DNA of 62,411 nt from a virus (lineage: Duplodnaviria > Caudoviricetes): the IMG/VR virus record IMGVR_UViG_3300037722_000432, positions 1 through 62,411 of that record; one strand, 5' to 3'. The position numbers and the translations under genes are program-made. Below the pieces are notes generated by a model. The model was not told the DNA's origin. It saw only the letters and a list, made by a program, of their open reading frames with translations, and did no database searches. Below, one piece after another: positions 2,966 to 11,899 of this stretch. Position 1 is the stretch's first letter. Every line of letters begins with the position of its first letter.

Positions 2966-3475
2966 ATGCTCCCAATCCAAGCACTATCTATCGTCGCCTG
3001 TCTCTGGTTCGGATGCCCCGAGTCAGAGATACCCGAGGTCTATTCACCTGAACCGAACACAACCCACTACCTGGAGGTCGAGCCCACAGCCATCGCACTC
3101 AATCAACCTATCGACTTGGCTGAGCCCGAACCAGTCGCCCAATCCACTTCCCAATCTGCTAACCGTGGGATGGGGAACCGAACCTCCGACGTGGAAGAAT
3201 GGCGTCCTCTCGTTGCAGGACATTTCAACCCTGAGGACGTGGACATGGCCCTATGCCTCATGTCGTTTGAATCAGGGGGAAATCCAAATGCCAAGAACCC
3301 TAGAAGTTCAGCCCGTGGCCTCATGCAGATCATGGCGAGTGTCTGGGCGGAAGAGTATGGGTTCTCATATGACGACCTTTATACCCCCGAGATAAACCTG
3401 TTCGTAGCCAGGAAGGTTAAGGACACACAAGGATGGGGAGCATGGGCTCCTTACAACAGAGGAGAATGTAGATGA
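2966..3475 (+). CDS. Secreted lytic transglycosylase (SLT/Rpf-like lysozyme fold)
   Basis: Hydrophobic N-terminus; catalytic motif FESGGNPNAKN..SARGLMQI and C-terminal GWGAW; GGAGGAGG RBS. Confidence 0.85.
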   Translation: MLPIQALSIVACLWFGCPESEIPEVYSPEPNTTHYLEVEPTAIALNQPIDLAEPEPVAQSTSQSANRGMGNRTSDVEEWRPLVAGHFNPEDVDMALCLMSFESGGNPNAKNPRSSARGLMQIMASVWAEEYGFSYDDLYTPEINLFVARKVKDTQGWGAWAPYNRGECR

Positions 3476-6969: not shown

Positions 6970-7830
6970 ATGCCCAAGACAGCACTCCAGATAACCAACC
7001 CAGATCTCTCCATGCCCCGACATGAACGAGAAGCCGCCCTCGCCAAGCTCCCCAAGTCGTGGAGAACTACCCTAGGCAAAGCAGAAGAATGGCCTTTTGT
7101 AGATCCCGATGAGATGCTGGATGCCCCAACCAGTTCATTCGGAGATTACCCAGCCGATGAGGTCTCCACTGACATCATCCCTTTCTCCGAGTTCGAGCCC
7201 TGGGGGAAAATGGACGAGGAGACCGACCGGGATTACGAACTGTTCTCCTACTATCGAGCTTCAGGGCTAAGTCGATCTCAGTCGAGTACGGCTAGGCATT
7301 TTGGGATCAATCAGACTCGGGTACACAAGGTTGCACACGAGAACGACTGGGGAGAACGAGTCAAACAGTGGGATCTATATAGGGAGAAGATCTACACCAC
7401 CGAGGTACTTGAAGAGACCAAGCGAATGGCAAAAGACCATGCCAAGATTGCGGCCAAGGGGATCAGGGCAGTCTCTATAGCCTTTGACGAGTTGTTGAAT
7501 CGAATAGATGCTCAAGACCCAGTTCACATAGAGGAGATGAACGCCCTCGGGTTGAAATCTCTCTACGCAATGGTCGAGAAAGCAGCCAGGGTCCTTCCCA
7601 ACTTGATGAACGCGGAAAGACTGTCAAGAGGATTGCCTACGGAATTGTCCGCGTCAATGTCCTACTCCGAGAGCAAAATCATCCTCCAAACCACCGACGA
7701 CCTCGCGGAGATCATCAGGGGCTTGGGCGACGTTCTGAAATCGGGACAAGCAAGCGAAGGGGTCGAGATTGACGTAACCGACCTCCAAGATGAAGGGGAC
7801 ATAGAAGAAGCCGAGTTTTCTGACCTATGA
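6970..7830 (+). CDS. Terminase small subunit (putative)
   Basis: Immediately upstream of and overlapping terL; ET..DYELF..Y...G..RS HTH region plus W.ERV..WD motif. Confidence 0.65.
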   Translation: MPKTALQITNPDLSMPRHEREAALAKLPKSWRTTLGKAEEWPFVDPDEMLDAPTSSFGDYPADEVSTDIIPFSEFEPWGKMDEETDRDYELFSYYRASGLSRSQSSTARHFGINQTRVHKVAHENDWGERVKQWDLYREKIYTTEVLEETKRMAKDHAKIAAKGIRAVSIAFDELLNRIDAQDPVHIEEMNALGLKSLYAMVEKAARVLPNLMNAERLSRGLPTELSASMSYSESKIILQTTDDLAEIIRGLGDVLKSGQASEGVEIDVTDLQDEGDIEEAEFSDL

Positions 7831-9257
7831 CAGACCTCCACGACCGTATCGACATGATGACCGAGATGGAGCGGTCGAAATTGCGGAAGGCTGTCACCCC
7901 GAGGACCAACAAATACATCCCGACTGATCCGACCACGAGACAAACGATCTTCCTTCTCCTCCAAGATCCTCTAGAGGTCTTATATGGGGGCGCAGCCGGT
8001 GGAGGGAAGTCGGAAGCTCTCCTCACCGCGGCAGCCCAATTTGTCGATGTGCCAGGGTACGCGGCTCTCATCCTCCGACGTTCGTACCGGGATCTCGCCC
8101 TCCCTGGGGCTCTGATGGACAGGTCGATGAAATGGTGGAAGCAGACCGACGCTCATTGGGACGGGACCAACTACCGATGGACTTTCCCATCCGGCGCTCA
8201 GATCCAATTCGGGTACCTAGAACATGAAGGGGATGAAACCAGATACCAGTCCGCGGAGTTCCAAACCATCTGCTTTGACGAGTTGACCCAGTTCTCCCTC
8301 CAGCAATACACCTATATGTTCTCCCGGTTGAGGAGGACGCGGGGAGTGGATATTCCCGTGAGGATGAGATCCGCATCTAACCCTGGGGGGGTTGGACATC
8401 TCTGGGTGAAGAAACGATGGAATCTGCCAGTAGGGAATACGAGGTCAACTAATCGACTGTTTGTTGGGGCTAAACTAGAAGACAACCCTCATCTTGACCA
8501 GGACACTTACGAATTGTCCTTTGAAGAGTTGAGCGCCGTTACCAAAGCCCAACTCCGGCATGGGGATTGGACGGCCCAAAACCTGGGTGGACAGTTTGAT
8601 CCAGCCTGGTTCACGATCATAGGGAAAGAGGAGATCCCCGATGGGCGGTTCCACACCAAGAAAGTACGGCATTGGGACTTGGGGAGTTCCGAGCCCACAG
8701 AGATAGATCCTGACCCAGATGCTACCGCGGGATGTCTTCTCCTCAAAGCAAACAAGATGCCCGACAGGGTACACAACAGGTTAATGGTGGACATCCGCAA
8801 CGGAGCGAACATGACGATCCCCCAGCCCCCCTTCTGGTACATTTTCGATACCAAGAGGAAGCAGACTCATTCTGGTGGAGTTGAAGATCTCATACGCATG
8901 ACCGCGCACATGGATGGGAGGGAGGTTCCCATATCTATCGAGCAGGAGAGGGGAGCCACCGGGAAATTGTTGATAGAAAACTACCGGCACAACATCCTGA
9001 GCGGGTTCACTGTCCATCGTTTGTGGACTAGTGGGGACAAAGCCGAGCGAGCGGGGATAGTCGCGGGGTACGCGTCAAACGGGAGATACTTCCTAGTCGA
9101 AAACGAGGACGCTGGCGGGTTCTTGGACGAGATCTCCCTCTTCCAAACCAAAGGAGTCCACGATGACCGCGTTGATGGATTGTCCGGGGCTCACACCATG
9201 ATCGAGAAGCTGATCGCTATGGACGGGTTAGGGTCGGATTCGGTGGGACAGCACTAA
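7827..9257 (+). CDS. terL: Terminase large subunit
   Basis: Walker A YGGAAGGGKS, Walker B ICFDELT, SNPGG coupling motif, nuclease motifs WDLG and HDDRVDG. Confidence 0.95.
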   Translation: MTDLHDRIDMMTEMERSKLRKAVTPRTNKYIPTDPTTRQTIFLLLQDPLEVLYGGAAGGGKSEALLTAAAQFVDVPGYAALILRRSYRDLALPGALMDRSMKWWKQTDAHWDGTNYRWTFPSGAQIQFGYLEHEGDETRYQSAEFQTICFDELTQFSLQQYTYMFSRLRRTRGVDIPVRMRSASNPGGVGHLWVKKRWNLPVGNTRSTNRLFVGAKLEDNPHLDQDTYELSFEELSAVTKAQLRHGDWTAQNLGGQFDPAWFTIIGKEEIPDGRFHTKKVRHWDLGSSEPTEIDPDPDATAGCLLLKANKMPDRVHNRLMVDIRNGANMTIPQPPFWYIFDTKRKQTHSGGVEDLIRMTAHMDGREVPISIEQERGATGKLLIENYRHNILSGFTVHRLWTSGDKAERAGIVAGYASNGRYFLVENEDAGGFLDEISLFQTKGVHDDRVDGLSGAHTMIEKLIAMDGLGSDSVGQH

Positions 9258-9261
9258 CTAC

Positions 9262-9290
9262 TTGACTAGGGAGAGGGCTGATGTTATCTT
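9262..9290 (+). promoter_or_regulatory. Promoter upstream of the structured RNA/tRNA region
   Basis: TTGACT-N17-TATCTT with TGn extension. Confidence 0.65.
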
Positions 9291-9296
9291 CATCGA

Positions 9297-10075
9297 GTCA
9301 CCCGATCACGCGGGAAGAGGAGTCCCCAACCCCTCGACCCAGATGGGCGAAGTGATCTCAGGATGGGTGCCGCTAGGCCAGGGGATAAACAACCGATGAC
9401 CACACCAAACGGCTGTTGGGATGAAATTAGCGAAGTCGGGTTGTCTGGTTAATCCCCTGGTTCCCAGCGTTGGAGTTGGGTTGAGAGTTGTTGACAATCT
9501 AGGTTTCAAGATGTGGTCCGGGTTGCGGTCTTGGCTCGGGTAGTAGCCACATCCCTAGCTGTGAGGGACACAAGACAAGTGGGACATTCGCGATAGTCCT
9601 GCGTAGGAGGGGAGTGCGACAGATCTCCTTGCAAAAGGTGGTCTCCTGAGGAAACTGGGAGACTCGCACTCTCATTCTATCTTGACAATCTAGGTTAGGG
9701 GGTTGGGGTAATGGCAGCGCAAGCCCTTGGCATCTAGCGGTGCCTCGGGCCATTATCCTTTCCCTCTTCGCGAGGTAGAGCAGTCTGGTAGCTCGCCACC
9801 CTCATACGGTGGAGGTCGTGGGTTCAAATCCCACCCTCGCAACAACAGCCCTATCAATGTTGGCCGGTCCCCGAGGCGACGATGGGGTAGGGAGTTCGGA
9901 GTGAGAAGAAGTATCGGGACGAGGCTACTTTCTAGGGGTAGCTAGCTCTGACTCCCGCCGGTTGTAGGCTCGGGTAAGAACTCATCGGGTAGCCCTACTA
10001 GTGGGTCCGGTTTAGCTACGTAGCTGGGAGACCAGCAAATCTTGGTGAAAGGCCGAGGCCCGAGCCTGCTATTCT
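9297..10075 (+). ncRNA. Candidate giant structured ncRNA (GOLLD/ROOL-like size and context) with embedded tRNA
   Basis: No credible ORF. Many helices with G-U pairs: 9299-9309/9352-9369, 9378-9386/9452-9460, 9510-9516/9547-9553, 9611-9619/9664-9672, 9706-9715/9749-9758, 9891-9902/9945-9955, 9964-9975/10058-10069. GNRA loops (GCAA, GAAA) are present. Confidence 0.65.
9769..9842 (+). tRNA. tRNA with CAT anticodon, initiator (fMet)-type body
   Basis: Full cloverleaf: acceptor CGCGAGG/CCTCGCA with C1:A72 mismatch, D stem GAGC/GCTC, anticodon arm CCACC-CTCATAC-GGTGG, T arm GTGGG-TTCAAAT-CCCAC. CCA is not encoded. Confidence 0.92.
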
Positions 10076-10082
10076 TCCCTCG

Positions 10083-10310
10083 ATGCTCTTTCACCCTCGT
10101 CATACCTTCGACCCGGACCATCCAGCGGACCCGTCCCCTCCCACCTTTTGGAACCGTCTCCGTTGCCGCGTCCACGGCCATTACACCCATCTCGACTTCA
10201 TCGACCCGGATAGCAACGTTCACCTGATCTGCCTGCGTTGTTCCCTCATCCTTGTCGTCTCTTGGCCGCGGGCTAATGTTGTTGGTGGTGACACCGTGGC
10301 CCAACATTGA
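10083..10310 (+). CDS. Small putative zinc-binding protein
   Basis: LRCRVHGH...CLRC motif. Confidence 0.45.
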   Translation: MLFHPRHTFDPDHPADPSPPTFWNRLRCRVHGHYTHLDFIDPDSNVHLICLRCSLILVVSWPRANVVGGDTVAQH

Positions 10311-10333
10311 CAGACGTTGACTAGATTGTAGAT

Positions 10334-11899
10334 ATGACTCTTCCTATCCCACTTCCTTACGAGCCGATCCCCTTCCCACCGGCCAATCGTATGACCCCAG
10401 AAGTCAACCGGATAGCTGGGTTGGACGCGGCCATAGTCCGTACCCTGTTTGATGACCTAAGCGCAGAGACGGTCAATTTCACCAAGTACCGCAACTACTA
10501 CGATGGAGAGCAGGGTTTCGTCTACGGGACAGAGAAGTTCAAGGAGCTATTCCCAGACTTCAAGGGGCTCAAGGACAACTGGTGTGGAGTGGTCATTGAC
10601 GCTATGGCCGACAAGATGAAACTCATCGGGATAGAACTCGATTCCAAAGACGGGAACGAGGAAGGTGAGAATCCCATAGCCAAACAGATTTGGGATGCCT
10701 TTCGCCGTAACGACATTGACGAACAGCAAGCAGATCTAACGGAGGGTGTTTTTGTCGAAGGTCGAGCCGCGGTCTTAGTCTGGCCGGATGAAGAGTTGGG
10801 AGTCCGTGTTGATTGGCAGCCCGCATCTCTGGTTAAGGTCAGATACTCCGAAGAGGACTACCGCAAGCCTGTTGTTGGGGTGAAGCGTTGGGTTACCCCA
10901 TCAGGTGAGATCCGCGTCAACGTGTATGACGATAAGGAGGTCCGCAAATACACGGAAGGGAAAGATCAAGCCCTCCCTGAACCCCAAAAGGCTGGGACTA
11001 TCTCCGCGACTATCCCACAGAAGTCACCAACTCTATCTCTTTCTCCCAGATTTGTAGAAGGGGAAGAGTGGCCTCTACCCCACGACTTTGAGATGGTCCC
11101 CATAGTCGAGTTCCATAACAAGCGGGGGAGCGAACTCAAAGACGTTATCCCACTCCAAGACGGGATCAACTACCTGCTTGTTTCTGCCTTTGTCGCGGGG
11201 GAGTTTTCAGCCCTCAAGCAGAAGATCTTTTTCACCCACTTGAAAGCCCCCCCAGGCGGATGGAGTAACAAGCCTGGACGCGTATGGCATCTCCCACCGA
11301 TGGTGGACTCAGATGGGAAGCTCCTACACGGGCAGCATGGGGAGTTCAACGAGACCGATTTGAGCGGGTACCGCCAGATAATCGAAATGGTCCTCCAACA
11401 TCTAGCTCTCACATCCAAGACTCCAGTGAGGATGTTCTTCAAGTCGGATCGTGGAGGTAGGGGAGACGCCCCATCCGGTGAGAGCGAACTGATCGAGGAC
11501 GAACCGCTCCTCGATAAAGTGGCAGATCGGATGACCAAACTGGGCAACCGCTGGTTCCAGGTCGCCAGGTTGGTGGGGAAGGCTCTTGGGATCGAGGGGG
11601 AGCTTCTTGGGGAAATGCTATGGCAGGACCCACGAACCAAGTATCGAACCTCTCTTCTGGATGAGGGAATCAAATACGCAGCACCCTTGGATAAGGGGGG
11701 CTTGGGACTGCCCATCGAATGGGTTGTGAAGCGGTTGGGATTGTCCCCCGAAGAGTTGGCTGAACTTCAAGAACTCCTTACCCAACAACTAGAGGAAGAG
11801 AAGGCTCTCCAAGAGGCGATGGTAAAGGCTGAGGCAGCGGGCGGGAATGGAAACGGGAATACGGGCAGCGGGACTTCTGGTCCCCAATCGACTAAATAG
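10334..11899 (+). CDS. Portal protein (SPP1 gp6-like)
   Basis: YYDGEQ, NWCGVVIDA, PIVEFHN and SGES motifs; 521 aa; lies after terL. Confidence 0.92.
   Translation: MTLPIPLPYEPIPFPPANRMTPEVNRIAGLDAAIVRTLFDDLSAETVNFTKYRNYYDGEQGFVYGTEKFKELFPDFKGLKDNWCGVVIDAMADKMKLIGIELDSKDGNEEGENPIAKQIWDAFRRNDIDEQQADLTEGVFVEGRAAVLVWPDEELGVRVDWQPASLVKVRYSEEDYRKPVVGVKRWVTPSGEIRVNVYDDKEVRKYTEGKDQALPEPQKAGTISATIPQKSPTLSLSPRFVEGEEWPLPHDFEMVPIVEFHNKRGSELKDVIPLQDGINYLLVSAFVAGEFSALKQKIFFTHLKAPPGGWSNKPGRVWHLPPMVDSDGKLLHGQHGEFNETDLSGYRQIIEMVLQHLALTSKTPVRMFFKSDRGGRGDAPSGESELIEDEPLLDKVADRMTKLGNRWFQVARLVGKALGIEGELLGEMLWQDPRTKYRTSLLDEGIKYAAPLDKGGLGLPIEWVVKRLGLSPEELAELQELLTQQLEEEKALQEAMVKAEAAGGNGNGNTGSGTSGPQSTK

What the first reader, a model, noticed from the sequence alone, without database searches (positions are those of the whole stretch)
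9262..10075. Giant structured RNA with an embedded tRNA between terminase and portal
Seen: about 780 nt with no credible ORF, its own promoter (TTGACT-N17-TATCTT), and at least seven long helices with G-U pairs on the plus strand. There are multi-way junctions and GNRA loops on both sides of a tRNA. Established: GOLLD and ROOL are large phage-associated ncRNAs of unknown function often linked to tRNAs, and phi29 uses a pRNA in packaging. Inference: this is a GOLLD-like or new giant RNA, and its position inside the packaging module hints at a late or virion-assembly role.
Basis: partly seen in the sequence, partly recalled or inferred. Interest (0 to 1): 0.85.

Follow-up and report, generated by a model that had tools for sequence, protein, structure and literature searches.

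The report
Phage initiator-tRNA unit with folded flanks
The gap between the packaging and portal genes of this uncultivated phage holds a promoter, a start-codon tRNA and a small conserved gene; the long folded stretches around the tRNA vary between related phages, so they do not form one giant RNA, though the upstream stretch may be an undescribed RNA.

Summary
The 825-nt gap with no protein gene (9258-10082), the promoter (9262-9290) and the tRNA-Met (9769-9843) are real. The "giant RNA with an embedded tRNA" does not hold as one unit. No Rfam family other than tRNA matches at E<=10, and direct GOLLD and ROOL searches are blank. I could fetch two close relatives. L082 has the same promoter 8 nt before the tRNA and no leader. 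L002 has a shorter leader that aligns only in its first ~230 nt. Neither has the long 3' arm. All three share the promoter, an initiator-type tRNA, a strong stem just before a conserved 72-75-aa Cys/His ORF, and the portal gene. Folding is above background only in places: whole region z -2.8, but 4 of 6 non-tRNA domains reach z<=-3 against 9 of 74 control domains, and three of those fold much better on the plus strand. Best reading (0.55): a self-promoted accessory tRNA-fMet unit whose variable flanks carry processing, stability or termination stems. The ~470-nt leader could be a new phage RNA (~0.2), but two sequences cannot test covariation. This scan earlier noted a similar leader-tRNA cassette at the terminase-portal site of enterobacterial phages; a model built from it finds nothing here.

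The parts
7827..9257 (+). Large terminase gene (left border of the gap)
   Evidence: Pfam Terminase_6N and Terminase_6C; relatives at 73-84% identity exist.
9262..9290 (+). Promoter: -35 TTGACT (9262-9267), 17-nt spacer, TG (9282-9283), -10 TATCTT (9285-9290); start of transcription inferred near 9297
   Evidence: Consensus scan. The same -35, TG and TAnnTT -10 are found in L002 (1419-1447) and L082 (3006-3035). The start site is inferred, not measured.
9297..9768 (+). 5' leader of the tRNA (~470 nt), non-coding. Present in shorter form (~347 nt) in L002, absent in L082.
   Evidence: Fold z -3.07. Alignable with L002 only up to about 9520. No blastn match in GenBank phages or PLSDB plasmids.
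9299..9358 (+). 5'-terminal conserved element: CACCCGATCACGCG (9299-9312) and CAGATGGGCGAAGTGATCT (9340-9358), identical in L002, flanking a variable insert; GATCAC/GTGATC can pair
   Evidence: 14 of 14 and 19 of 19 bases identical against about 73% identity around them. It lies in different reading frames in the two phages (read). The fold here is not unusually stable (z +0.5 and +0.4).
9379..9459 (+). Long irregular hairpin with a GGGAU/AUCCC base. A hairpin with the same base and a different upper part sits at the same place in L002 (1535-1602).
   Evidence: z -2.8 to -3.0 in the window and -4.8 in L002. In the window the minus strand folds even better (z -4.5).
9491..9516 (+). Conserved block TTGACAAT...TTTCAAGATGTGG, shared with L002. 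Its first 15 nt recur exactly at 9682-9696.
   Evidence: Three matches at up to 3 mismatches in the whole window; 10 of 100 shuffles reach that number.
9603..9680 (+). Three-way-junction domain A (16-bp closing stem, GCAA-capped hairpin, 7-bp hairpin), followed by a U-rich AUUCUAUCUU; possible internal terminator or stabiliser
   Evidence: z -4.4 to -4.9 on +, -2.7 on -. The terminator-like scan hit 9656-9674 lies inside it. No clear counterpart in L002.
9697..9767 (+). Three-way-junction domain B. Its closing stem uses the CCCUC just 5' of the tRNA and ends 1 nt before tRNA position 1.
   Evidence: z -4.0 on +, -1.2 on -. L002 has a 74-nt domain (1726-1799) closed by GAGGGUC/GACCCUC that ends 2 nt before its tRNA (z -2.7 to -3.0).
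9769..9843 (+). tRNA-Met (CAU) of bacterial initiator type: C1xA72 mismatch and A11:U24, but anticodon stem CCACC/GGUGG instead of three G:C pairs; no encoded CCA
   Evidence: ARAGORN. The Rfam alignment marks pair 1:72 as non-standard. The other features are read from that alignment.
9844..9963 (+). Window-specific part of the 3' trailer (hairpin 9848-9888 and a weaker branched domain); no counterpart in L002 or L082
   Evidence: z -2.5 for 9846-9890; -0.9 to -1.3 for 9862-9963. Alignment A3.
9964..10069 (+). Branched domain closed by a 12-bp G+C-rich stem, ending 13 nt before the small ORF and followed by UAUUCUU. It is the positional equivalent of the single post-tRNA hairpins of L002 (1879-1937) and L082 (3119-3163).
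   Evidence: z -3.6 to -4.2 on +, -1.1 on -. L002 scores -4.3 / -2.1 and L082 -5.7 / -3.0. No sequence similarity among the three.
10083..10310 (+). Conserved 75-aa Cys/His protein (C-x2-H-x-H ... C-x2-C) just upstream of the portal gene; not part of the RNA
   Evidence: 63-65% identical to the 72-aa ORFs of L002 and L082. Weaker tblastn matches upstream of the portal genes in L171/L174, and also in L100 and L165. No Pfam or PHROG family.
10334..11899 (+). Portal gene (right border)
   Evidence: Pfam SPP1_portal.

Best explanation
The terminase-portal gap carries an accessory, self-promoted transcription unit for a phage initiator-type tRNA-Met. A conserved extended -10 promoter sits 5 nt after the terminase stop. 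In this phage the tRNA lies in a long precursor with a ~470-nt leader and a ~240-nt trailer. No terminator-like site was found between the terminase stop and the promoter, so the unit probably also forms a long untranslated spacer in the late structural mRNA. Host RNase P and 3' processing enzymes would cut the tRNA out, which cuts the transcript between terminase and portal. The stable stems around the tRNA would then act locally. Domain B ends 1 nt before the tRNA and would protect the 3' end of the upstream fragment. The strong stem 13 nt before the small ORF would terminate or attenuate transcription, or protect the 5' end of the downstream mRNA. The conserved 5'-terminal element would stabilise or regulate the promoter's own transcript. 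The flanks are modular and change quickly between lineages; they are not one ribozyme-like giant RNA. Shown: the anatomy, the conservation pattern, and the local plus-strand stability. Inferred: the transcription start, the processing steps and the role of each stem.
For: 1) Relatives. L082 (TerL 76%) has the same promoter with its -10 ending 8 nt before the tRNA and no leader. L002 (TerL 77%) has a ~347-nt leader. Both have only a 55-75-nt trailer made of one hairpin. So the promoter, tRNA, pre-ORF stem, small ORF and portal are shared by 3 of 3, the leader by 2 of 3, and the long trailer by 1 of 3.
2) Stable structure is kept at the same positions while the sequence turns over. Pre-ORF stems score z -4.2, -4.3 and -5.7 in the three phages, each better on + than on -. 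The pre-tRNA domain uses the CCCUC strand in the window and in L002. A hairpin with a GGGAU/AUCCC base occurs in both.
3) Local stability exceeds the phage's own coding background: 4 of 6 domains at z<=-3 against 9 of 74. By my own binomial arithmetic that is P about 0.003.
4) No covariance-model match to any of 4227 Rfam families other than tRNA and tRNA look-alike hits on the tRNA itself, apart from one sub-threshold sRNA hit (E 2.2) in the trailer.
5) The slot is an insertion hot spot. In 21 relatives that hold both genes, the TerL-portal distance is -90 to 343 nt except in L002, L082 and L113. L165 and L113 hold protein ORFs there.
6) The tRNA is found only in the close clade. ARAGORN found a tRNA-Met after TerL in 2 of 160 loci and a tRNA in 0 of 12 further loci.
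Against: The first ~230 nt of the leader, including two perfectly conserved blocks of 14 and 19 nt, are kept between phages whose TerL proteins are only 77% identical. That argues for a sequence-specific function that stabiliser stems do not explain. Those blocks do not form an unusually stable fold (z +0.4 to +0.5). A 470-nt leader is far longer than tRNA processing needs, and L082 shows the tRNA can do without it. None of the pre-ORF stems has a canonical U-tract, so a terminator role is uncertain. No expression data exist, so the start site, the processing and co-transcription with the late operon are all untested.
Confidence: 0.55

Rival explanations
1. The leader (about 9297-9768) is a stand-alone, undescribed structured phage RNA. 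It would be made from the tRNA precursor by RNase P cleavage and act in trans, for example as a decoy, sponge or scaffold tied to the initiator tRNA or to host defence. The window and L002 would be the first two members.
For: Conserved 5' blocks, identical over 14 and 19 nt, that are frame-independent. Hairpins kept at the same positions. Two adjacent three-way-junction domains with GCAA loops and strong plus-strand bias. Leader z -3.07. No Rfam family. Known phage large RNAs sit beside tRNAs, sometimes with a tRNA in the GOLLD linker (passages seen). An analogous leader-tRNA cassette occupies the same slot in enterobacterial phages (earlier scan notes; its conservation checked).
Against: Only two sequences are known. 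Homology fades after ~230 nt. The strongest domains (9603-9767) have no clear L002 counterpart by sequence. L082 lacks the leader entirely. One strain variant carries a 12-nt duplication at 9472. No covariation test is possible and no expression data exist.
Confidence: 0.2
2. The leader is a cis-acting transcription regulator, either a put-like processive antiterminator or an attenuator. It would decide whether polymerase starting at 9262-9290 passes the stems at 9603-9680 and 9964-10069 into the small ORF and the portal operon.
For: The order promoter, structured leader, tRNA, terminator-like stem(s), downstream genes matches the cassette that earlier scan agents read this way in phiV10-type phages. 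Two stems are followed by AUUCU-type tails.
Against: L082 keeps the pre-ORF stem but has no leader. The enterobacterial leader model finds nothing here. The stems lack U-tracts. What I know of HK022 put RNAs is recalled, not tested here.
Confidence: 0.08
3. The flanks are decaying remnants of earlier cargo (genes or other tRNAs) or of recombination scars, with no present function. Their folding would reflect G-rich composition and chance.
For: The slot is variable and holds protein genes in L165 and L113. The 3' half of the leader and the whole trailer cannot be aligned between relatives. Trailer z is -1.54. Most 240-nt windows in the region are ordinary.
Against: No residual protein similarity by tblastx to 174 fetched loci (best E 0.006) or by Pfam or PHROGs. 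No second tRNA-like hit at E<=10. There is an excess of very stable, plus-strand-biased domains and there are perfectly conserved 5' blocks.
Confidence: 0.12
4. It is a divergent member of GOLLD or ROOL, with a 5' domain, a tRNA in the linker and a 3' domain.
For: Size, phage origin and a tRNA-Met between two folded arms resemble published GOLLD contexts (passages seen).
Against: No match at E<=10 to GOLLD RF02032 or ROOL RF03087, nor in two cmscan runs over all families. GOLLD's 3' region is described as universally conserved, but the 3' arm here is missing in both relatives.
Confidence: 0.02

Closest known systems
GOLLD RNA (Rfam RF02032)
   Same: Large RNA of phages and prophages, often by tRNAs. 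One studied example lies downstream of a tRNA-Met, and tRNAs sometimes sit in the linker between its 5' and 3' regions (passages of bioRxiv 10.1101/2024.12.08.627333).
   Different: No covariance-model match at E<=10. The 3' arm, which in GOLLD is the universally conserved part, is absent from both close relatives here.
ROOL RNA (Rfam RF03087)
   Same: Large ornate RNA of phages and prophages near tRNAs (passages of PMC5737381 and of the cryo-EM preprint).
   Different: No match at E<=10. The search's control genomes held no ROOL either, so the sensitivity is unverified. [quoted passage not shown]
Leader RNA-tRNA-Arg-terminator-cargo cassette in the terminase-portal gap of phiV10/epsilon15-type enterobacterial phages
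   Same: Same genomic slot and the same order: promoter, structured non-coding leader, tRNA, terminator-like stems, small gene. I confirmed the tRNA-Arg in the phiV10 gap and that the ~190-240 nt upstream are conserved in 86 phage records.
   Different: It lies on the opposite strand to the late genes in phiV10 and has a different tRNA. A covariance model from 10 phages scores phiV10 at 180.9 bits but at most 1.9 bits here. The small ORFs before the portal genes are not similar.
Phage tRNA clusters whose precursors also yield non-tRNA stable RNAs (T4 species 1 and 2 RNAs), and the mitochondrial 'tRNA punctuation' of polycistronic transcripts
   Same: A tRNA cut out by RNase P and 3' processing divides a longer transcript and releases the flanking RNAs.
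   Different: Both are recalled from general knowledge, not from any call. There is no sequence relation, and here a single initiator tRNA sits inside a structural-gene operon.
Pseudomonas phage PaMx74 (Pamexvirus)
   Same: An unannotated tRNA-Met-like sequence lies about 190 nt after terL (record positions 3359-3432; terL ends at 3168).
   Different: Unrelated phage with a short gap, and the tRNA is followed by other genes, not the portal gene. No leader similarity.

Membership tests
GOLLD (RF02032) | Match to the family covariance model (416 positions, gathering score 150 bits) | tested here: not met
   0 matches at E<=10 in the whole window. No GOLLD hit in cmscan at gathering or at E<=10.
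GOLLD (RF02032) | Universally conserved 3' region, less conserved 5' region | tested here: not met
   The 3' arm (9844-10082) is replaced by a single 55-75-nt hairpin in L002 and L082. The feature itself is taken from a passage seen.
GOLLD (RF02032) | Phage or prophage location beside tRNAs, or a tRNA in the linker | tested here: met
   Virus record with terminal repeats; tRNA-Met between the two arms.
GOLLD / ROOL | Self-assembly into multimeric RNA cages | not testable with these tools
   Needs cryo-EM or native gels.
ROOL (RF03087) | Match to the family covariance model (574 positions, gathering score 99.1 bits) | tested here: not met
   0 matches at E<=10 (no control genome rang, so sensitivity is unverified). 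No hit.
phi29-type packaging RNA (pRNA) | Match to the Rfam pRNA model (that Rfam holds one is recalled) | tested here: not met
   No family other than tRNA and tRNA look-alikes hit in 9100-10450 at E<=10, apart from one sub-threshold sRNA hit. The phage has a standard large terminase.
Enterobacterial terminase-portal leader RNA (phiV10 type; earlier scan notes) | Match to a covariance model built here from 10 phages (179 positions, 29 pairs) | tested here: not met
   phiV10 180.9 bits. Nothing at E<=10 in the window, L002 or L082 with default filters. Best 1.9 bits with filters off on 9200-10400.
Bacterial initiator tRNA (tRNA-fMet) | CAU anticodon | tested here: met
   ARAGORN.
Bacterial initiator tRNA (tRNA-fMet) | Unpaired 1:72 (C1xA72) | tested here: met
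   The Rfam alignment flags pair 1:72 as non-standard. The tRNAs of L002 and L082 have A1xC72 (read).
Bacterial initiator tRNA (tRNA-fMet) | A11:U24 in the D stem | tested here: met
   D stem GAGC/GCUC in the alignment. The rule itself is recalled.
Bacterial initiator tRNA (tRNA-fMet) | Three consecutive G:C pairs at the bottom of the anticodon stem | tested here: not met
   The stem is CCACC/GGUGG in the window. L002 has the canonical UCGGG/CCCGA. The window tRNA is therefore initiator-like, not a proven initiator.
Phage accessory ('moron'-type) tRNA unit | Own promoter, and presence that varies among related phages at a fixed slot | tested here: met
   Promoter conserved in 3 of 3. tRNA only in the close clade. 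Slot content varies.

The most novel reading that the evidence does not exclude
The ~470-nt leader is the first member, with L002, of a new class of large structured phage RNAs made together with an initiator tRNA. It would be a functional analogue in actinobacterial phages of GOLLD, ROOL and the enterobacterial leader-tRNA cassettes at the same terminase-portal slot. It would be released by RNase P and act on translation initiation, host defence or transcription read-through.
Probability: 0.18. Interest if true: 0.65.

Novelty: new variant of a known kind. Interest (0 to 1): 0.3.

Why it matters
If the ordinary reading holds, this is a clear example of a single initiator-type tRNA inserted with its own promoter into a phage structural operon, with fast-evolving structured flanks. 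That is useful for annotation, because such gaps should not be called giant RNAs from folding alone. It also bears on how tRNA excision may divide late mRNAs. If the leader proves to be a stand-alone RNA, it would add a second, unrelated case of a structured leader fused to a tRNA at the terminase-portal junction. That would suggest a recurrent design in phages of distant hosts, and it would give a tractable ~470-nt candidate for the open question of what large tRNA-linked phage RNAs do.

Tried and rejected
Known RNA families. cmscan of the whole window at gathering thresholds and of 9100-10450 at E<=10 gave only the tRNA, tRNA look-alike hits on it, and one sub-threshold sRNA hit in the trailer. 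GOLLD and ROOL searched directly gave none. I looked for a GOLLD positive control in the tRNA arrays of phages Myrna and GodonK and found none there, so the GOLLD and ROOL negatives have no positive control.

Protein coding. Stop-to-stop frames, also with TAG read as Gln, and Pfam and PHROGs on seven frames gave nothing credible. tblastx of the leader and trailer against 174 loci gave no significant match (best E 0.006).

Repeats. The 15-nt direct repeat and TTGACTAG-type words are not enriched in the genome. CTACTTGACTAGGGA-like words are (8 matches, 0 of 100 shuffles reach that), but I did not follow this up.

More homologues. Single-protein scans found nothing. The best TerL relatives in species genomes are 56-62% identical. 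The portal-based scan added none. DNA patterns from the conserved blocks found only L002 plus two chance hits inside coding DNA. The window's tRNA anticodon arm was not found in IMG/VR. 401 genomes of the phylum of G001 (an Acidimicrobiia MAG) held no close TerL. 401 genomes of its class held only two 27-29-nt chance matches to the leader. Leader and trailer have no blastn match in GenBank phages or plasmids.

Expression. No RNA holder was listed.

Strain variation. One low-depth variant has 1 substitution and a 12-nt duplication in 9100-9753, none in the trailer, and all its listed substitutions after the tRNA at 10193 or beyond. This looks like a mosaic boundary and is too thin to use. No contig joined across the leader or trailer.

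RNAalifold on two sequences reports 'compensatory' pairs in a badly aligned stretch. I do not count them.

A second promoter-like site at 9727-9756 is not conserved in L002, and sites of this kind are expected by chance at about 0.9 per 2 kb.

Papers. For 10.1101/2024.12.08.627333, PMC5737381 and PMC10690425 I saw passages only. For the rest I saw only search listings and the starts of abstracts. No description of this RNA turned up in searches. The supplementary models of PMC10690425 (8495 candidate RNAs of 29-151 nt from IMG/VR) were not opened and could overlap parts of this region.
Full report
What is there. The window is a complete-looking virus record with direct terminal repeats. A WhiB-family gene and Rpf-like transglycosylase domains point to an actinobacterial host. 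The large terminase gene ends at 9257 and an SPP1-type portal gene starts at 10334. This is the largest stretch of the genome without a credible protein gene (crude ORF map). It holds a promoter-like site at 9262-9290 (TTGACT, 17 nt, TG, TATCTT) and one tRNA-Met(CAT) at 9769-9843. That ORF is real: it is 63-65% identical to 72-aa ORFs in the same place in two relatives and carries a conserved Cys/His pattern. The non-coding part is therefore 9258-10082. No frame in it has a family match, also with TAG read through, and tblastx against 174 fetched loci finds nothing significant (best E 0.006).

Is it more structured than chance? Only in places. The 814-nt stretch has z -2.77 on the plus strand and -2.32 on the minus strand (20 shuffles each). 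The leader alone has z -3.07 (0 of 100). The trailer alone has z -1.54 (13 of 200). In a 240-nt sliding scan of bases 1-23,280, z has mean -0.26 and sd 1.43, and 11 of 193 windows reach -3.05. Within the finding only window 9601-9840 stands out (-5.1, second of 193). Hairpins picked after folding always look good, so I applied one automatic procedure to the target and to 15 coding segments of 814 nt. The control domains have mean z -1.84 (sd 1.18), and 9 of 74 reach -3. In the target, 4 of the 6 non-tRNA domains do: 9379-9459, 9603-9680, 9697-9767 and 9964-10069. By my own binomial arithmetic that is P about 0.003. Three of these four fold much better on the plus strand than on the minus strand (z -4.4 / -2.7, -4.0 / -1.2, -4.2 / -1.1). 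That fits RNA-level structure with G-U pairs. The fourth, 9379-9459, folds better on the minus strand.

Known families. cmscan against all 4227 Rfam families finds only the tRNA, tRNA look-alike hits on the tRNA itself, and one sub-threshold sRNA hit in the trailer, even at E<=10 on the 1.35-kb region. Direct searches with GOLLD (RF02032) and ROOL (RF03087) are blank at E<=10. I could not obtain a positive control for those two models. Leader and trailer have no blastn match in 50,697 phage records or 72,556 plasmids.

Relatives. Alignment-driven scans returned two close loci: L002 from IMG/VR (77%) and L082 from a metagenome (76%). All other loci are at or below 62%. L082 reads: terminase stop, the same promoter (TTGACT, 18 nt, TG, TAAGTT), 8 nt, tRNA-Met, a 45-nt hairpin, the 72-aa ORF, portal. 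It has no leader and no long trailer. L002 reads: terminase stop, about 90 nt with a hairpin, the same promoter, a ~347-nt leader, tRNA-Met, a 59-nt hairpin, the ORF, portal. So the promoter, tRNA, pre-ORF stem, small ORF and portal are shared by 3 of 3. The leader is in 2 of 3 and the long trailer in 1 of 3.

The window and L002 leaders align over about the first 230 nt. That stretch has two perfectly conserved blocks at the inferred 5' end of the transcript (14 and 19 nt). These lie in different reading frames in the two phages, so they are RNA- or DNA-level elements. It also has a hairpin with a shared GGGAU/AUCCC base and a TTGACAAT...TTTCAAGATGTGG block. Beyond about 9520 the two leaders cannot be aligned. 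I saw no equivalent in L002 of the long-range helix (9324-9344 with 9688-9708) that would make the window's leader one large junction.

What recurs is stable structure at fixed positions with different sequence. One case is the stem ending 10-15 nt before the small ORF in all three phages (z -4.2, -4.3, -5.7). Another is a 70-75-nt domain whose 3' strand is the CCCUC just before the tRNA, in the window and in L002.

The slot. Among 21 relatives that hold both the terminase end and a recognisable portal start, the distance is -90 to 343 nt except in L002 (851), L082 (397) and L113 (1144). L113 and L165 carry protein ORFs there, and L165 has a promoter-like TTGACG...TAATTT just after its terminase stop. 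No tRNA was found after the terminase gene in the other loci. The gap is therefore a hot spot for accessory insertions. The tRNA unit is one such insertion, specific to the close clade.

Most likely mechanism. This is a self-promoted accessory unit for an initiator-type tRNA. No terminator-like site was found between the terminase stop and the promoter, so it probably also lies inside the late transcript. Excision of the tRNA by RNase P and 3' processing would cut the RNA between terminase and portal. The stems that abut the tRNA and the small ORF would then protect the new ends or terminate and attenuate transcription. The conserved 5'-terminal element would serve the promoter's own transcript. 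All of this paragraph is inferred from anatomy; there are no expression data. The main weakness is that a 470-nt leader with perfectly conserved blocks is more than such roles need. I therefore keep a stand-alone new RNA at about 0.2, a cis-acting antiterminator or attenuator at about 0.08, and decayed cargo at about 0.12.

Comparison with the known. The GOLLD and ROOL literature (passages only) describes large phage RNAs near tRNAs, sometimes with a tRNA in the GOLLD linker and one example downstream of a tRNA-Met. Membership fails on the covariance model and on GOLLD's conserved 3' region.

Earlier notes of this scan describe a structured leader, a tRNA-Arg, terminators and a small cargo gene in the terminase-portal gap of phiV10/epsilon15-type phages. 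I confirmed the phiV10 tRNA and the conservation of the ~190-240 nt upstream in 86 phage records. I built a model from 10 of them. It scores phiV10 at 180.9 bits and nothing here. The two cassettes are therefore analogous in layout, not homologous.

A published screen of IMG/VR for structured RNAs (PMC10690425, passages only) reports candidates of 29-151 nt. Its supplementary models were not seen and might cover single hairpins of this region.

Verdict. The giant-RNA reading is not supported as stated. The region is best filed as a new variant of a phage accessory tRNA unit, with a leader that deserves a covariation test once more relatives can be fetched.

Noticed in passing
L082:3006-3044: In this relative the promoter's -10 (TAAGTT, 3030-3035) ends only 8 nt before tRNA position 1 (3044). 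Transcription may therefore start at or within about 2 nt of the mature 5' end, so the tRNA would need little or no RNase P trimming.
   Followed up: partly
window 9769-9843; L002:1802-1877; L082:3044-3118: The three phage tRNA-Met genes all have a mismatched 1:72 pair (C1xA72 or A1xC72), but their anticodon stems differ: UCGGG/CCCGA in L002, UCUGG/CCAGG in L082, CCACC/GGUGG in the window. The hallmark three G:C pairs are thus lost stepwise within one clade.
   Followed up: partly
window 10083-10310: A small Cys/His (C-x2-H-x-H...C-x2-C) protein directly upstream of the portal gene is conserved in L002 and L082. Weak tblastn matches occur upstream of the portal genes in L171/L174, and also in L100 and L165. 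No Pfam or PHROG family. It may be a zinc-binding head-assembly or packaging accessory protein.
   Followed up: partly
L165:3537-4130: In an Acidimicrobiia MAG contig with a 56%-identical terminase, the same slot holds a promoter-like site and two protein ORFs instead of a tRNA. This shows that the terminase-portal junction is an insertion hot spot.
   Followed up: partly
L177 (Pseudomonas phage PaMx74, record 3359-3432): A tRNA-Met-like sequence about 190 nt downstream of terL has no annotation in the GenBank record. blastn hits of the same kind under no annotated feature occur in Xanthomonas phages Elanor and Xoo-sp2.
   Followed up: no
L190:11088-11616 (Gordonia phage GodonK): Rfam finds a full-length tmRNA (90.3 bits) in the tRNA array. 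The record annotates only a 62-nt 'tRNA-His' at 11167-11228 inside that span.
   Followed up: no
window 9472: A low-depth strain variant in one sediment run carries a 12-nt tandem duplication (GAGTTGGGTTGA) in the leader. Almost all its other differences cluster at 10193 and beyond, which suggests a recombination boundary inside the small ORF.
   Followed up: no
window 6825, 9258, 52450, 60035, 61024 and others: Words like CTACTTGACTAGGGA occur 8 times at up to 3 mismatches (0 of 100 shuffles reach 8). They may be a phage-specific promoter or operator motif.
   Followed up: no
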